The translations under genes and the position numbers were made by a program. The notes beneath the pieces are model-generated. The model was given only the letters and a program-made list of their open reading frames with translations. It was not told the DNA's origin and did not search any database. A DNA stretch of 64,000 bases from Chrysomallon squamiferum (taxonomy: Eukaryota > Animalia > Mollusca), in NCBI GenBank assembly GCA_012295275.1, contig CM022668.1, forward strand, positions 4,340,001 to 4,404,000. Direction: 5' to 3'. Below, piece by piece: positions 1,060 through 11,375 of this stretch. Within the stretch, counting starts at the first letter, position 1, and each line of letters begins with the position of its first letter.

Positions 1060-1658
1060 TCGTTATTTCAGACGTTTTTAAAACTTTAACTTAAACGTTA
1101 AACTATTTCAGCAGTCATTGAGTTTGAACTTAAGTTTTCTCTTTTGATTAATAATAAATAATATACGTACTTCATTAATAGTTACTTTTCCCAAAACATA
1201 TTTTTAAATATAATTAATTATTCATTACTGTTGCTTTTTATTGATCGGTTTTAACAAGTACCTTCCCATATCTGTAAGGAATATTTGATTATTGATGGTA
1301 ATAACAATAACAACAACAACAAAAAATAGTCCAGTACTCGATAAACAAAATTTAATCAGTAAACTACCAAGGTTTGGTATATCGTTGGATATAAATTGTA
1401 ATGAAAATTAATGACTGCTGTCTGTTTAGTACATATGCTGATATTGTCACATATTTACCCCAGTTACTGACCAGGAAACAAAAATATACTAAATGCTAAG
1501 ACTGATGTTTGCTTACAGAAGTGAAAACATATAATATATATTTTATGCATCACCCCCAGTTATTTAATTGTATGCTTAATTTAAACTCAAACTGTGTCTG
1601 TATATTTTCCTCCAAACAATAACTGTATACCCTGTGTTTAATAAATAAAAAAAACAAA

Positions 1659-4052
1659 ATGACTAACACTTTGCGAATGGATGCAGAGGACGAGGGAGGT
1701 GTTGATTTCAGATGTGTACTACTTGAAGTTGATGGTGACCTGCACAAGGAGGACATTGATTCACTGAAATTCTTGTGTCGCGAGTTTGCTCCATTGAGTC
1801 GACTGGAACATATAAAGAACGGAACTGAACTGTTCAGCCTTCTTGAGAAAACAGGCCAACTGAAAGAAACAAATAAGTGGCTTTTGGCCGAGATGTTAAA
1901 ACGTATTATGAGGTTAGATCTGGTGGAAACATTGCAGGTTGATGAGAAAGAACTGGATAGATATCTGTCCACGTATGGATCACATTTTTCACCATACAGA
2001 AATCTACTTCTTGATCTTTCTGATGAAATTGGTGAAGAAGACTTTCATAAGTTGCTGTTTTTTTCTGGAGACATTCCTAGAGCAAAGCAACAAAAGATTC
2101 ACAGTGTGCTGGATTTTTTTCTCATTCTTGAACAGATAAAAAAAATTAGTCCTGAAAATGTTGACATTTTGGAAGGTTCTCTTAAGCAGATAGGAAGATT
2201 AGATTTAGTAGAAAAAATAAAGAACTTCAAACAGAAGATGAATGTAAATATAACCTCTACAGCGGATCAGTCAGCTGTGATTAGGACTGCAAATAAACCT
2301 GAAGAACCAATACCAAAGATGCAAGTAGAATATCCCAGTGAGCCAACTAAGCCTGATAGGACAACAGCAAATGTTGTACCAGAGAATCCTCAACCAACAC
2401 AAAGTCCTTCTTCAGAACCAGGTAAAAAAAACTTCTTAAATGACCCAAGAATCATAAAACTGACAACTTGATTTGTATTGTAACTTTATTTTGAAAATAA
2501 ATTAATGTAGAAATATTCCTATGAATGATAAGATTACATCAGTATTTCCGTAATTAACATACTTTAACTTATCTCATTAGTTCTGTCAATAATTTCAACT
2601 GTTCTATTATTTGTTCCATAGAATTTCAACATTGCTGTATAAACAATAAAATGGAAAATGTCAGCATCTATAATTACTCAGTCTAATTATTTTTATTCAA
2701 ATACTATATTGTTAGCGAACATTTTTCACAATAAACTAATAAAATCATTAATTTATAAATATGTATTCATAATGTATTTACACTTTTTGTCCACATTTCA
2801 AAATATTCACTTCAAATTGAAATGCTTAATTATACTTGTTTCTATTTATTAAGATTTTTATTTTCATTTTAATTTGTTCTTCAGTTTGCTGTTAAAATTT
2901 GTAGATCTGTATTTAAGTAGTGATTCCCTGGTTTCATTTCTGAATTAATATGGTTATATCGTTTTGACATACCAACAATGTTCTCACTTACAAAGACGAG
3001 GGATTATCTTTAGTTTTCTATTTTTTTATTTGTCTGTTTATTTATTACATTTTGTTCATTATTCATTCATTCATTGATTCATTTCATCATCATTATAATT
3101 ATAATCATTGTCTCATATTATTATTATCACATTTGTTTATTTATGTTAAATGTTGTTAATTTTTAATTATTATTTCATTCATTTCTCATATATATATCTA
3201 TATATATTTTTTCCAGCTATACCTGATACACTAATCCGTGATATTGCTCTGCATATATCAAACACGCAGTTCTTTGCCCTTGGAACCCAGTTGAATATTC
3301 CTGACTTAACACTACAAAATTTGAGTCAGTATTATCATTCACCTCTTGAGAGAAATACTAAGATGATCAAACTGTGGCTCCAAATGATAAATAGCACTCA
3401 TGATAGAAAAAAGATAATAACAGATTTGTCCAAGGCCATGAGGAACTGTGAAATGACACAAACAGCAGCAGCACTGGAAACCATGTTTGAAATACAGCCG
3501 CAAGGTAATGTTTTAGTTTGAAGTAAATCAGCTCTCTGAAAACACAAAACAGTTGGCAAATATTCTAGAGTTCAGAGAGTGTAAAGTTTAAGCTATTTCA
3601 GTGTCATTACCATTATCCCTCAAGATTTGATCACAAACTTTCATTCACCAGTGACTAAATTTCTTTATGATTTTATGTCACAAATTACATTTTATATGTG
3701 TGTGTGTGATTTTTATCTATATCTAAAGTTCTATCTGCTGTTTTTATTTTTCATGAAAATATTTTGGTTTCAGATCCTGAGATCAGCAGAAGAGGACAAA
3801 GGGCACATGAAGCTAACAGAACAGGTAATTGTACATTTTATAAATTTTTCATTGCTTTCAGAGAAATTTATTTTTCTAATAATGAAGCACAGAATAAGAA
3901 GATTATTTGAGATTTGTTACTTTTTAAACAATGTTTTCACTTACATGGAACATTCTACTTCCAAAAATCAGCAATTATCTTTATTTTTCTTTTTTCTGTT
4001 TGTCTATTTATTTACTACATTTTGTTCTTTGCTCATTCATTCATCATTGTTA

Positions 4053-4090
<38 letters not shown>

Positions 4091-7000
4091 TTGTTAATTT
4101 ATTAAATTTTCTTAATCATAATTTCAATCCTTTTTCATATTTTGTTTTTTTCATTTTATCTCTTTTTTCAGAGAGTGAAATAGTTAAACTATTTAGGAGT
4201 CATTACCAAAATTCTGTCTGCTGTTTTTATTTTTTATGAAAATATTTTGGTTTCAGATCCTGAGATCAGCATTACAGAACGAAGAGCAGATGAAGCTACC
4301 ACAACAGGTAAATATACATTTTATTAATTTTAAATTGCTGTTGAACAACATTTTTTTCTAATAAAGATCAGAATAAAAAGATATTTTTCTAATAAAGAAG
4401 AAGAGAATAAGAAGACATTTGAGACTTTGTTACTTTTTAAACAGTCAGTATAAATGTGTTTACATTGAATTAATTGTTTTTTAAGTCTAAATACTTTTAT
4501 TCAAATACTATGTTATTAGCAAACATTTATCACCAGGAAACTGATAAGATCAGTAATTCATAAATATGTATACAAAATATATTTAAACTATTTGTTTGCA
4601 TTTGTGTGAGTGTTTTATTTATGTGTGTGTGAAATGTTTATTTATGTCGAAAGTTCTATCTGCTGTTTTTATTTTTTATGAAAATATTTTGGTTTCAGAC
4701 CCTGAGATCAGCATAAGAGATCAAAGGACCCATGAAGCTAACAGAACAGGTAATTATACATTTTATAAATTTTTCATTGCTTTTAGAGAAATTTGTTTTT
4801 CTAATAATGAAGTACAGAATAAGAACATATTTGAGATTTTGTTACTTTTTAAATAGAAAGTATAAAGCTGTTTACTTCCAGTTGATTTTATTATTTGTTT
4901 TGGAGGCCAGTCTTTTCTATTTAAAATATACGAGAAACTTTGTATTATCACAGGTCAAGTAAACATAAACATTTAACATAAATTTAATGTGATCATAATA
5001 TTGACATGCAATATTGCTAGTCAACAACACTCGAATTTAATAATAAAGGTCATTTGTTTCTGGTACTTTTTCCAAACAAAAATGTGACCTAGATCTGGTA
5101 CCATCATGTATTTTATTTCTATTTTTTGAAAGAACAACAAGAAATGATTCACCTGCATAGTTCTACTCTTTGTTATTTTATCATTTTATGTTATTATTAG
5201 CAAATAATTGACATCACAAAAGAAATAAAGAAATCAGATTAAGCTGCATATATTTTAATTTTATAGCAGAACTTACTTTGAGTTGTGTTACTTATTTATT
5301 AACTTTTAATTTTTCAATTATTTATTGAAAATCACCAGCAAATCAGATTCCAGATGTCGTACAGCAGTTAGAAAGAACTGATGTAGACAGTGATCCTGTC
5401 CCCTACTACAAAATGGATGCTAATCCTGCAGGTATATTTTCAAATATTGTTTTTACTAATTTGGAAAAATGCCTCTAGTAGATTTGGCAAGCAATATAGA
5501 TGTATGTCACACATACATATTCATTCATTTTTTTATGCCTTTGTGATTTGTTTGGTGATGTTTACACAGACCTGTACTGCTAGAGATTTGAATTCTCGAG
5601 TGTATAAGTCATGATTCCCTGCTCTTATTCCAGCTACTATATCATAATGAGTGATTCATAAACACAGACCCAGTCTGGGCTCTCCACATTCATTTCACTG
5701 TATCTGTCCCTCATTCTTTCTCTCTGTTTCTCTTTGTCTGTCTCCCTTAAATATATGTTTTTTACTGTTTTATTCTAGGAATATGTTTAATAATCAACAA
5801 CAGAGATTTTTACGTTGATGAAGTGAGGCCAGAAGCTAAAATGTTGCCAAATAGAGAGGGAACTGATGTAGATGCTGGTAAGTTTTACTTTTAAAGAGAA
5901 TAGCAGCCATCACAAAACAACAACTATAGTAATAATTAAAATAACAGCATTAGTAACAATAACAATAATAATTATAATAAAAATAGTTTTAACAACAAAT
6001 AATAAGATAGTGATTATAATAAAAACAACAACAACAATAATAATAATGAAAGTTTGTTTATGTATGGCATTAGCTCTCATTTTCTCTCTCCTTCGCTTAC
6101 TCTGATTCCTTTATAGTGTTTTGTAGATGAAATTCATTCAATATTTAGAAATATGTAGAGAGATTTATTCACTTACATAAGTATGTGCCATTGTTTTCAC
6201 CTTTCAGAATATATATATGTCATAAACGAAAACAATGCTCAAACACCATCTATTACAAAAATAATATTTTTGTTTGGTTCAGACCCAACATACACATACA
6301 TACACATCAATATTACATACCTAGTTTTAGAATATGTAAATAAATTTTATTTCTAGTTAAGCTGAAAGAAACTTTTAAGAATCTTCAACTCATCATCCAA
6401 TACAAAGAAAATTTGTCTGACACTGACATGGTTCAGACTGTAAATCAGCTGGGTTTGTCTGATCACCGTGACTATGACTGTTTTGTGTGTTGTATTTTGT
6501 CACATGGAACTGAAGGTGCAATATACGGAAGTAATGGTTGTCTTGTAAAGATCAGAGACTTGACTGCACCATTTAGATCTCAGTCATGTCCAACACTGAG
6601 TGGGAAACCAAAGTTGTTTTTTATACAGGCTTGTCAGGGGAAGCAAAAGACAACCAGGTATGTATGATAGGCACATTATTATTCATTGAAGCTGTTAAAA
6701 TAATTTCTCAAAACTACAGTCATGAATACCCATTTTAATTTAGCTATGGGTCATTCTGTGTCAAATCACCCAATGGGTTAAACCCGACCGTCTCAGATTT
6801 TGAAATCTGAAATATTAGCCCAATCGGATCAGTGGTGTGGGAGATATGGCCCACCAAATTTTGAGGTTTTTGGTAAAAATGGGCAATACCACCAATCTTA
6901 GAACCCTCATATCTCATGAACTACTGGGCCAATCTTCATAAAATTGGTATTGTTGAAATGGCAATATGACAATACGCCAATACTGGAGCACATTGACCTA

Positions 7001-9343
7001 TTGACCTTTGCTATGACCTTGAAATTGAACGTGTGGATCATGTGCCCTTGAGATGACCTTTATTGAAATTTAATCTCCCACATGTTAACTAAAACATATA
7101 AAAAATTTCCTGGGTGTAATATTTTTTGTTTAGCCACAATATAGATTTAAAAAATGCACATAGATGAAAATAACACCTTTTCAGCCATTAACATCTGATT
7201 AACTAAAACCTGAATGATCAATTCTGGATGCTAGGAATCACCATCTTTCTTGATCATCGAGTAAGACATTGGAATCCATGTCATATTGCCTTTTTAACAA
7301 TACCAATTTTATGAAGATTGGCCCAGTAGTTCCTGAGATACAAGGGTTCTAAGGTTGGTGGTCACACCCATTTCTGCCAAAAATCTCAAAATTCAGTGGG
7401 CCATATCTCCCACACCACTGATCCAATTGGGCTAATATTACAGATTTGGTGCTGTGGGATCCCAGTCAACAAGTATACCTTAATTTATAAAAATCTGTGA
7501 TGGTTGGGTTTAAATTTGTTTTTTTGGGGGGTGATTTGACATGGAATGACCCCTATGTACATGTTATTCTGTGTGGCCTAATTCTGTGAAAATTGCCATC
7601 TCATTGTTTAATACATGAGAAAGACGTCTTGGGGCAGAATAATTTGCTACAAGTTTATACTGACATTGTCCACAAATAATAAAATTTTAATGGTTTTGTG
7701 TTTATTTGCTCTAAAATACTTCATATATAGTTACAAATATTTGTATGGGTTTGGGTATGAGTTCGAATGCTGACTAGGATTAATATTTTTAAAATATCAG
7801 AACCTGATTTTTGGTATGTTTTATTTACAGGACATGATACACAGATAGACAGTGATATTGACATGGATGCTCCACAGGCAGAAACAATCCCAAATGAAGC
7901 AGATTTTTTGTTAGGATATGCCACAGTACCAGGTTTTGTGTCTTACAGATCAAAATCAGCTGGATCCTGGTACATCACAAAACTGACTGAAATTTTAAAT
8001 AAATATGCTAAAAAGTAAGTAAATGAATTTTAGAATCATATGAAATTTTAAGTGGAAGCTTAGGAATCTGCTTAAACTAGTAGCCACAGAAACATGAATG
8101 AAAATAATTGTTAAACATCACATCATGACCAAAACAGGAAACTTCTGGTTCAAAGAGAAACCAAAGGTTTTATATACAAGTGATCAGGTAAAAAGCAGGA
8201 TACAGCAGCTGAACGATGATGAAATTTAAAAAGAAACAAATATTTTTTAAAACTGTATTGAGTTAATCTGAGTCATGGTGACATCACTGAAATGTTGTCT
8301 TGAGGATTATTTTATCAGTGTCAAAAAAAAAGTATCATCTACCTGTTCAGGAGATGAAGGTAGGTGGTTTATAAATTACTTATATTATCACAATGTTGAC
8401 TGCTCTTTTTGAAATAGATGGCAGGTTCAAACATGTTTTAGTACTGTTTATGTTTACATATTTTCAACTGTTGCATATTTAAAATATATATATAAAAAAA
8501 AACATTAAAAAAAAAAAAACTATGGTGAGATACTATTTGCTGTGACTTTGGTACTATTCTTTGTGATCTTGACTAAGTGTTTTGTATTGAACCTTTGTGA
8601 TGTCACATGTTAACTAACACTGTTAGCTGGATGATGATTTTTCTAGGCAGAACAAACTGATTACTTTAATAAAAACTGTCAATCATATAATCACAAAATT
8701 TAGTAATATACCAAGTATGTCAAATATATTTTTGAATGAATGTTGCTCTTTAAGTGCATTTTTTTTTAAAATTATTGTTTATAAATTGTTGTAAATGTTT
8801 GCAAGTTTGGGATTTTTTGTTGTTGTTTTTATATTTATTTTCTTTTGTTTTTTTATTCAATTATTGTTTTTAATGAATTATATAAATTTCATTATTTTAT
8901 TTATATTCAATTATTATCAGTTTATTTTTTTAATTAACTTTTTTCATTAGAAACATTTGTTACATATGTGACTGTATTTTAGTTAGAAGCTCCCAAGGAC
9001 AGTTCCTTTGTCATCTTGTTAACTAAAATGTACAAAATGTCATTTTCCTTCTCCTTTCAGATTATGTAACAAACTAATCAAAATATAATGGAGGTTGGGA
9101 CATATATACAGATGCGTGTGTGTGTTGTGTTTTTTAATCTTTCTATTTGTTATTAAAATATTACTATTTATTACTTTTTAAAATTTATTTTCATTTTATA
9201 TATTTTTCAGAGAGGACATCCTCAGTTTGCTGTTGTTAGTAAATAATGAAGTATGTAAAGGAAACGCCACGATGAATGATGGTACATACAAGCAGTCCCC
9301 AGCACCATTGTACACACTGAGGAAGAAGCTGATATTTGTATAA
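1659..9343 (+). CDS. CASP8: Caspase-8-like initiator caspase, DED-DED-DD-linker-p20/p10, ~670 aa after removing one apparent extra base
   Basis: Exons: 1659-2421 (two DEDs, with LKFLC and RLDL motifs), 3217-3504 (death-domain-like), 3774-3824, 4257-4307, 4699-4749 (micro-exons), 5339-5431 (YKMDANPA), 5779-5877 (GICLIINN..NREGTDVD), 6357-6657 (ILSHG..KPKLFFIQACQG), 7831-8014 (DMDA..EADFLLGYATVPGFVSYR..GSWYI), 9211-9343 (EDILSLL..KQSPAPLYTLRKKLIFV*). Tandem DEDs plus QACQG are caspase-8/10 hallmarks. All splice phases match except 6657/7831, which is off by one nt. Confidence 0.92.
3217..3504 (+). CDS. Death-domain-like cassette exon of the caspase (96 codons, phase 1-1)
   Basis: ttccag acceptor and gtaatg donor. 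AIPDTLIRDIALHISNTQFFALGTQLNIPDLTLQNL..ERNTKMIKLWLQ..ITDLSKAMRNCEMTQTAAALE follows the six-helix death-domain pattern (IA..I...F..LG..L.I....L / E...M...W / L..A....E....A..L). Recognised by eye, no HMM run. Confidence 0.75.
3690..4860 (+). repeat. Three tandem ~440-480 bp units, each carrying a 51-nt caspase micro-exon
   Basis: Each unit has ctgctgtttttatttt..atgaaaatattttggtttcag | AYCCTGAGATCAGCA..TGAAGCTA..AACAG | gtaa..catttta..aatttt..ttgttactttttaa. Exons are 3774-3824, 4257-4307 and 4699-4749. Confidence 0.9.
6748..7552. mobile_element. Non-autonomous DNA transposon (MITE) with long TIRs, Sola2-like
   Basis: Left end GGGTCATTCTGTGTCAAATCACCC and right end GGGTGATTTGACATGGAATGACCC are reverse complements. 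Inverted similarity covers ~6748-6970 vs ~7280-7552. A 4-bp direct repeat CTAT lies at 6744-6747 and 7553-7556. GGG termini, 4-bp TSD and long TIRs fit Sola2. No transposase ORF. Confidence 0.8.
8150..8424 (+). pseudogene. Possible decayed caspase p20-end/p10 remnant inside a caspase intron
   Basis: gagaaaccaaaggttttatatacaagtgatcagg resembles the KPKLFFIQACQG exon DNA. It is followed by EDYFIS..VSS..EGRWFINYL (cf. EADFLL..VSY..GSWYITKL), then atcacaatgttgactgctc (cf. atcacaaaactgactgaaa) ending ag|gt. Contains stops and frameshifts. Confidence 0.35.
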
Positions 9344-10220: not shown

Positions 10221-11375
10221 CAATCTGTGTTTCAGTGCAGTTCAGGATTTGGTATAGGTATTATCTGTACTCTTCAGTAATTCCTTCACAACTGTCAGTG
10301 ACAGTTGTTTCTTCATTTCTTGATTATTTCTGTCCTTATTTTTTTATTAACAAAAGACATAAATGTACAGACATATTCTCATAACTTCTGAAGTTCTGTA
10401 GGTCGTTTATGCACACAATGTCTGTATCTTAATTAGAACCTCCCAAGGAATGTTCCTTTTCATTCTCCTTTCAGATCCTTTACCAAACCAATACAAATAT
10501 AATGCAACTGGAATATTACTATTTATTACATCTTTAAATTTATTTTCATTTTATTTTTCAGAAAGGACATCCTAAGGACATCCTACATTAATAAATGAGA
10601 AAGTAGGAGAAAAATTCAAGTTGAAGGATGATTGTATGATGAAGCAATCAACATATTTCAGCTCACTGAGGAAGAAGGTGATATTCCAGTGAAGGACATT
10701 ATTTTTCATTTGTTTATATTTCCTACAATCAGTGCCAACAACAATGAACTATACATTTGCAAGTGATTGCTTTATTTGTTTGCTTGTCAAGGATGATTAT
10801 ATAATATTCAAAATAACTGATTCTTAATTAATGGTGTAGTAAAATTTAATTTGTTTAAAGAAATATAAAAATAGTATCTAGTTTCTTGATTGTTTATCCA
10901 GTTTAATATGCATTAATGTTCTAAAGATAATATATATTAATAACAATTTTGTATATAATTTTGTGTATAATTATGAATCATGTAATTCGTAAAGGAATTT
11001 AATTTTGAGTTTGAGATGTATTCTACATGTGTATTGTAAATAAATGAGTACATTGCAAATGCTGAGGCATTTAATTTGGCTCGAGTTTGAAATGTGTATC
11101 TGCATGAGGGTTAAAGAAAGAAGAGAGGGAATTTTGCTCTTTTTTTTAAGCTTTTAAATTTTTTTTTATTGTTTTATTTTTTTTTAAAACACAATCTGTG
11201 TTTCTGTGCAATTCAGGATTTGGTGTCTAGTATTATCTGTACTCTTCTGTAATTCCTTCACAAAATTAACATTAGTACATTAGTTTTCACTTTCACTTTT
11301 TTTTTTTATATATATATTCGTAATCGTACAGAGGCATATTTTCATAACTTCTGCTGGTTGTTTATGTACACAATC
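10221..11375 (+). repeat. Direct repeat pair (~10221-10420 and ~11192-11375) downstream of the caspase
   Basis: caatctgtgtttc.gtgca.ttcaggatttggt..agtattatctgtactcttc.gtaattccttcacaa occurs in both, followed later by catatt.tcataacttctg. Confidence 0.8.
10562..10692 (+). pseudogene. Diverged duplicate of the caspase terminal exon (pseudo-exon or alternative last exon)
   Basis: ttttcag acceptor, then KDIL..TLINEKVGEKFKLKDDCMMKQSTYFSSLRKKVIFQ* vs KEDILSLLLLVNNEV..KQSPAPLYTLRKKLIFV*. It needs a 1-nt correction near the aaggacatcct duplication. Upstream intron ~10425-10560 matches ~8970-9210. Confidence 0.75.

What the first reader, a model, noticed from the sequence alone, without database searches (positions are those of the whole stretch)
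1659..9343. Caspase-8 with a built-in death domain: DED-DED-DD-caspase, resembling an adaptor-enzyme fusion
Seen: a clean 288-nt phase 1-1 exon (3217-3504) with a death-domain helix pattern lies between the tandem DEDs and the catalytic domain. Known: vertebrate caspase-8/10 have only DED-DED and reach TNF-receptor-family death domains through FADD (DED+DD); some invertebrate caspases carry a DD instead of DEDs. Inference: having both could let this enzyme dock on DD-bearing receptors or adaptors without FADD, and skipping the symmetric exon would give a conventional caspase-8, i.e. a splice-controlled switch in recruitment. I cannot tell whether this architecture has been described.
Basis: partly seen in the sequence, partly recalled or inferred. 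Interest (0 to 1): 0.8.

Follow-up and report, generated by a model that had tools for sequence, protein, structure and literature searches.

The report
Snail caspase-8B with death domain
This snail gene encodes a caspase-8 with an extra, spliced-in exon for a predicted death domain between its two death-effector domains and its protease; the layout is already published for oysters and mussels, so it is an ordinary member of a known mollusc group.

Summary
The 288-nt phase 1-1 exon 3217-3504 is real, and an RNA contig joins exon 1 to it. Its 95 residues read as a death domain: Pfam Death E=0.0012 but below the cut-off, 30 of 30 atlas hits, and a six-helix model whose top six structural matches are death domains. 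DED-DED-DD-caspase is the published bivalve caspase-8B layout (Cg8B, Mc8B). Vogeler 2021 reports a single-exon DD and cites DD binding to human Fas and FADD. I found the same linker DD in 24 of 159 DED-caspase linkers, and in 20 of the 26 closest catalytic-domain relatives, across gastropods and bivalves. No exon-skipping transcript was seen, but the listing was cut. DD-less forms occur as separate gene records. As assembled, the gene has one extra base just after QACQG, probably an assembly error. The scan's earlier notes held no such finding.

The parts
1659..2421 (+). Exon 1: start codon, tandem DEDs, Pro-rich linker
   Evidence: Pfam DED E=7e-39, 2 stretches; covered by RNA contigs
3217..3504 (+). 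Exon 2: death-domain exon, 288 nt, phase 1-1
   Evidence: joined to exon 1 in an RNA contig
3774..3824 (+). 51-nt phase 1-1 mini-exon, copy 1 of 3 (predicted)
   Evidence: AG/GT flanks; duplicated with its flanking intron DNA
4257..4307 (+). 51-nt mini-exon, copy 2 (predicted)
4699..4749 (+). 51-nt mini-exon, copy 3 (predicted)
   Evidence: a similar peptide follows the DD in Gigantopelta P0005
5339..5431 (+). Exon ending the prodomain, with Asp-rich likely cleavage site; an in-frame acceptor also exists at 5354
   Evidence: 65% identity to P0005
5779..5877 (+). Exon, start of the large catalytic subunit
   Evidence: 67% identity to P0005
6357..6657 (+). Exon with catalytic His (SHG) and Cys (QACQG); one extra base at about 6641-6649 as assembled
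   Evidence: three contigs of run X5 lack one base at 6644 or 6645 (table 4)
7831..8014 (+). Exon: inter-subunit linker and start of the small subunit
9211..9343 (+). Last coding exon: rest of the small subunit and stop codon
   Evidence: 84% identity to P0005; loose ends of RNA contigs behind 8014 resemble its start (table 7)

Best explanation
This is a gastropod caspase-8 of the molluscan caspase-8B type, in which a spliced-in exon for a predicted death domain lies between the tandem DEDs and the protease and likely serves as a second docking module. Shown here: the exon, its splicing to exon 1, the domain order, and the spread of this layout over gastropods and bivalves. Inferred from the family: the DEDs join FADD's DED and stack further caspase molecules, while the DD makes DD-DD contacts with death receptors or FADD at the receptor complex, as reported for mussel Mc8B. 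Clustering would dimerise the protease, and self-cleavage at the Asp-rich sites would free it, leaving DED-DED-DD on the platform. The DD is likely included constitutively, and DD-less forms likely arise by exon loss in duplicated genes. The extra base after QACQG is likely an assembly error.
For: Exon and junction. Fold. Spread: 24 of 159 DED-caspase linkers carry the DD, as do 20 of the 26 proteins with the best catalytic-domain score to P0005; 0 of 3180 shuffled linkers hit. Named carriers include Gigantopelta, Haliotis, Patella, Babylonia, Solemya, Tegillarca, Pinctada, Mytilus, Argopecten, Crassostrea, Saccostrea, Potamilus and Sinanodonta. The window protein sits in an 11-row clade, support 97, whose named rows are all gastropods; 7 of 11 have the DD. 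Gastropod and bivalve DD profiles align at probability 94.6, E=6.5e-8. Literature: PMC7836458 passages. Gigantopelta P0006, a separate gene record 91% identical to P0005, lacks the 94 residues that match this exon. Assembly indels: an ICA69/arfaptin-like exon in the same window also changes frame at a T run.
Against: No binding or activity was tested on this protein, and the Mc8B binding result is known to me only through Vogeler's citation (paper not held). The trees do not recover gastropod and bivalve DD-caspases as one exclusive clade; Lingula and Branchiostoma DD-less caspases fall among them at moderate support. A 9-sequence bivalve DD profile scored the window DD 5.5 bits, under the best shuffle of 8.7; a 13-sequence one gave 13.3 against 10.0. 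The DD is below Pfam's cut-off and Z 9.2 is modest for a helical bundle. RNA contigs did not show the one-base deletion (table 4), though the one listed piece that reaches there stops at 6648.
Confidence: 0.85

Rival explanations
1. The DD exon is a regulated cassette: skipping it gives a conventional DED-DED caspase-8 from the same gene and switches how the enzyme is recruited.
For: The exon is symmetric, so skipping keeps the frame. Gigantopelta P0006 lacks exactly the matching segment and looks intact, so the DD is dispensable for a complete protein.
Against: Only inclusion was seen in the listed contigs of three RNA runs from one study. All prodomain exons here are phase 1-1, so symmetry is not special to this one. 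The annotated isoform pairs compared keep the DD. The test is weak: contigs drop rare forms, and 82 joints and 4671 pieces were not shown.
Confidence: 0.15
2. The extra base after QACQG is real in this copy. The gene would then make a protein that ends just after the catalytic cysteine and lacks the small subunit: an inactive, cFLIP-like decoy or a decaying paralog.
For: Donor 6657 is phase 2 and acceptor 7831 is phase 1 as assembled. Divergent related copies exist in the runs, so one copy could be broken. A Gigantopelta record P0012 also ends shortly after QACQG.
Against: The small-subunit exons are 70-84% identical to P0005 and stop-free. Three X5 contigs lack one base at 6644 or 6645. Two other genes in the window also change frame. 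An AG at 7851-7852 could restore the frame.
Confidence: 0.1
3. The gastropod DD was gained independently of the bivalve caspase-8B DD, by separate exon shuffling into the same linker.
For: DD sequences are very divergent; small bivalve-only profiles barely or do not detect the window DD. No exclusive clade in either tree. Echinoderm caspase-8s with one or two linker DDs lie elsewhere in the tree.
Against: Same position, same single-exon encoding as reported for oyster, presence in four gastropod lineages and many bivalve ones, and one converging profile.
Confidence: 0.12

Closest known systems
Bivalve caspase-8B group: Crassostrea gigas Cg8B (AKP95634) and Mytilus californianus Mc8B (ADB80146); Vogeler et al. 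2021, PMC7836458, citing Sakamaki et al. 2014, PMID 25205508
   Same: DED-DED-DD-p20-p10 order; DD on a single exon; QACQG; the Mc8B DD is reported to bind human Fas and FADD DDs.
   Different: This one is from a gastropod. Both DEDs lie on one exon here, while the paper reports one exon per DED in oyster. It has three repeated 51-nt mini-exons after the DD.
Gigantopelta aegis XP_041374913.1 (LOC121387773; P0005)
   Same: Closest relative found: 71% identity over the caspase domain, 45% over the DD, same order.
   Different: One copy of the mini-exon-like peptide instead of three; neighbouring paralog records lack the DD.
Vertebrate caspase-8/10 with FADD
   Same: Tandem DEDs and catalytic motifs.
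   Different: No linker DD; none of the vertebrate linkers searched hit the DD profile at E<0.001.
Amphioxus bbtCaspase-1/2 (PMC3196919) and scallop DD-only caspase-8/10 (PMC8878197)
   Same: A DD in a caspase prodomain; the amphioxus DD co-localises with FADD2.
   Different: One DED plus DD, or DD alone, rather than two DEDs plus DD.

Membership tests
Caspase-8/10 family | Two N-terminal DEDs | tested here: met
   Pfam DED, 2 stretches, E=7e-39
Caspase-8/10 family | Peptidase_C14 domain with His/Cys dyad and QACQG | tested here: met
Caspase-8/10 family | Uninterrupted frame from large to small subunit | tested here: inconclusive
   One extra base at about 6641-6649 as assembled; some contigs lack a base there
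Caspase-8/10 family | Protease activity and activation at a death-receptor complex | not testable with these tools
   needs bench work
Molluscan caspase-8B | DD after the two DEDs | tested here: met
Molluscan caspase-8B | DD encoded by one exon | tested here: met
   3217-3504; same as reported for oyster
Molluscan caspase-8B | Catalytic domain groups with Cg8B and Mc8B | tested here: inconclusive
   Falls in a 31-row clade (support 95) with oyster Cg8B-like proteins, but that clade also holds Lingula and Branchiostoma DD-less caspases; Cg8A was not in the tree. P0026 and P0029 match Cg8B stretches in the paper's supplement.
Molluscan caspase-8B | DD binds Fas or FADD DDs | not tested
   Reported for Mc8B only, via PMC7836458
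Death domain (Pfam PF00531) | Score at or above the curated cut-off | tested here: not met
   19.3 bits against 22.6; the homologous segment of P0005 passes at 25.0
Death domain (Pfam PF00531) | Six-helix death fold closest to DDs rather than CARD, DED or PYD | tested here: met
   Six helices; top six VIA-align rows are DDs, Z 9.2-7.6, CARDs from 7.2; 30 of 30 atlas hits Death

The most novel reading that the evidence does not exclude
A linker death domain is an old feature of caspase-8, present before gastropods and bivalves split and perhaps shared with echinoderms (sea-star caspase-8s carry two, a feather-star one carries one). It lets the enzyme dock on DD receptors directly, and it has been dropped repeatedly by clean loss or skipping of one symmetric exon, vertebrates included.
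Probability: 0.2. Interest if true: 0.45.

Novelty: new member of a known kind. Interest (0 to 1): 0.15.

Why it matters
The architecture itself is known, so the finding adds little. The small additions are that it extends from bivalves to four gastropod lineages, that paralogs differ by exactly this exon, and that echinoderms have similar proteins. If the DD lets caspase-8 engage receptors without FADD, it would bear on how death-receptor signalling was wired before vertebrates. That has not been tested in a native mollusc system in the passages I read.

Tried and rejected
No whole genome is held for this window, so paralogs and FADD could not be searched. Word-based searches for longer proteins with the DD exon (0 of 47 candidates) and with the DED exon (0 of 2861) found nothing; both are weak negatives, since the profile-free HMMER search found 591 DED relatives. 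Foldseek gave no match at E<=0.001. Sakamaki 2014 is not held. Literature searches for 'DED-DED-DD' with caspase-8 (0 papers), for echinoderm cases (only Vogeler) and for a spliced mollusc isoform (6 listings, none on topic by title) found no gastropod description and no splice switch; subscription papers are not covered. The careful IQ-TREE run did not finish, so one search is a quick tree and one search is FastTree; 2 and 5 rows were dropped for lacking the motif used to cut the domain, and most vertebrate rows were left out. No complex prediction was run: no native partner was in hand. Reads were laid on 1300-9150 only, so the last exon was not covered directly. Rejected: chance ORF (spliced, conserved); CARD, DED or PYD identity (DDs rank first); a recent lineage-specific fusion (widespread).

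Full report
Observation. The gene spans 1659-9343 on the plus strand in ten predicted coding exons. Exon 1 (1659-2421) holds two DEDs, and the exons from 5779 on hold a caspase domain with SHG and QACQG. Exon 3217-3504 is 288 nt, bounded by AG and GT, phase 1-1 and open. In run X1, one RNA contig runs from 2151-2420 directly into 3216-3502, so the exon is spliced in; runs X2 and X3 have contigs that also stop matching at 3216 with 27 further letters. All three RNA runs come from one study.

Is it a death domain? Pfam Death matches at E=0.0012, 19.3 bits, below the 22.6 cut-off. The ESM atlas returns Death clusters for 30 of 30 hits. A single-sequence model has six helices, pLDDT 78. VIA-align ranks six death domains first (ankyrin-G Z 9.2, rmsd 3.0, 86 aligned; a chain of the oligomeric DD complex 2of5 Z 9.1), with CARDs from Z 7.2; such Z values are modest for helical bundles, and Foldseek found nothing at E<=0.001. 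The homologous segment in Gigantopelta P0005 is 45% identical and passes Pfam's cut-off. A profile built from other caspase linker DDs, leaving out the window and Gigantopelta, scores it 38.7 bits, and 0 of 1000 shuffles reach that. Taken together, it is a divergent DD.

How common is it? A search with the catalytic exon listed 120 of 538 hits; 3 of the 120 already carried precomputed DED, Death and caspase domains. A search with the DED exon listed 150 of 591. Of 266 pooled proteins, 174 had DED plus caspase and 159 had a linker over 40 residues. An iterated profile seeded with the window DD converged on 24 of these 159, and on 20 of the 26 proteins scoring best against P0005's catalytic domain. 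None of 3180 shuffled linkers hit at the same threshold. Named carriers are Gigantopelta, Haliotis, Patella and Babylonia among gastropods, and Solemya, Tegillarca, Pinctada, Mytilus, Argopecten, Crassostrea, Saccostrea, Potamilus and Sinanodonta among bivalves. Three are echinoderm proteins: Antedon with one DD, Asterias and Patiria with two. The window protein lies in a clade whose named rows are all gastropods, support 97; the organism is inferred to be a gastropod on that basis only.

What is published. Vogeler et al. 2021 (PMC7836458; I read passages and searched its supplements) define a bivalve caspase-8B group, Cg8B and Mc8B, with two DEDs and a DD. They state that each domain is on its own exon in oyster, that the Mc8B DD binds human Fas and FADD DDs (citing Sakamaki et al. 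2014, which I could not read), and that the effect on binding in bivalves is unclear. Oyster-type proteins in my set match Cg8B stretches from their supplement. I also read passages of PMC11463336, PMC10967218, PMC8878197, PMC3196919 and PMC11121540; the passages shown add DD-only and DED-DD caspases but no gastropod DED-DED-DD case. Searches for the literal architecture, echinoderm cases and a spliced isoform found nothing further.

Limits on orthology. Neither tree gives gastropod and bivalve DD-caspases as one exclusive clade; DD-less Lingula and Branchiostoma proteins fall among them at moderate support. A small bivalve-only DD profile missed the window DD (5.5 bits, best shuffle 8.7), a larger one barely detected it (13.3 against 10.0), and profile-profile comparison gave probability 94.6. 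A single origin in molluscs is the simplest reading, not a proven one.

The splice switch. Skipping would keep the frame, but so would skipping any of the phase 1-1 prodomain exons. No skipping contig was listed, though 82 joints and 4671 pieces were not shown and contigs lose rare forms. Annotated isoform pairs of Patella, Babylonia and Asterias differ elsewhere and keep the DD. Gigantopelta P0006, a separate gene record 91% identical to P0005, lacks the 94 residues matching this exon, with matching ends; a Mytilus edulis record lacks most of the linker found in the M. coruscus record. Exon loss in paralogs fits best, but annotation gaps or skipping cannot be excluded without those genomes.

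A flaw in the assembled gene. The donor at 6657 is phase 2 and the acceptor at 7831 is phase 1. The conserved 'QPG' lies one frame over, so there is one extra base at about 6641-6649. Three contigs of run X5 lack one base at 6644 or 6645; RNA contigs did not show this. An ICA69/arfaptin-like exon (family name recalled, not searched) and a TRIM-like ORF in the same window also change frame, which points to assembly indels. A truncated copy remains possible.

Mechanism. By inference from caspase-8 biology and the Mc8B report, the DEDs engage FADD and stack, the DD adds DD-DD contacts to receptor or FADD, clustering dimerises the protease, and cleavage at Asp-rich sites releases it. None of this was tested on this protein.

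Verdict. A real, expressed, correctly read death-domain exon in an ordinary member of a described molluscan caspase-8 type. Interest 0.15.

Noticed in passing
window 3690-4875: Three tandem copies of a 51-nt phase 1-1 exon with flanking intron (75-91% DNA identity between blocks); Gigantopelta has one similar peptide, so the linker grew by local exon duplication.
   Followed up: partly
window 10449-10690: Degenerate partial duplicate of the last caspase exon and its upstream intron, with indels and stops in the frames read; likely a dead copy.
   Followed up: partly
window 3239-3595 (runs X1-X3, X5): Contigs that match the DD exon only in part or with many differences indicate at least one more divergent copy, present in RNA runs too.
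   Followed up: no
window 6803-7447: A high-copy element with 169-nt inverted ends (90% identity) sits in the intron between the two catalytic exons; very high contig depth; MITE-like by recall.
   Followed up: no
window 39136-39363 (minus strand): ICA69/arfaptin-like exon (name recalled) changes frame at a T run; likely an assembly indel.
   Followed up: partly
window 28121-30888 (plus strand): TRIM-like gene (by eye) whose RING motif is split by a long low-complexity insert and by a frame change near 28700-28850.
   Followed up: partly
window 12007-14019 (minus strand): Intronless RING/B-box TRIM-like ORF of about 670 codons (by eye).
   Followed up: no
P0238, P0274, P0251: Echinoderm caspase-8-like proteins with DED-DED-DD-DD (Asterias, Patiria) or DED-DED-DD (Antedon); no paper found in one search.
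   Followed up: partly
P0153, P0208: Other DED fusions among relatives: tandem DED with an RPA-type OB fold, and TSP1 plus tandem DED plus caspase; may be gene-model chimeras.
   Followed up: no
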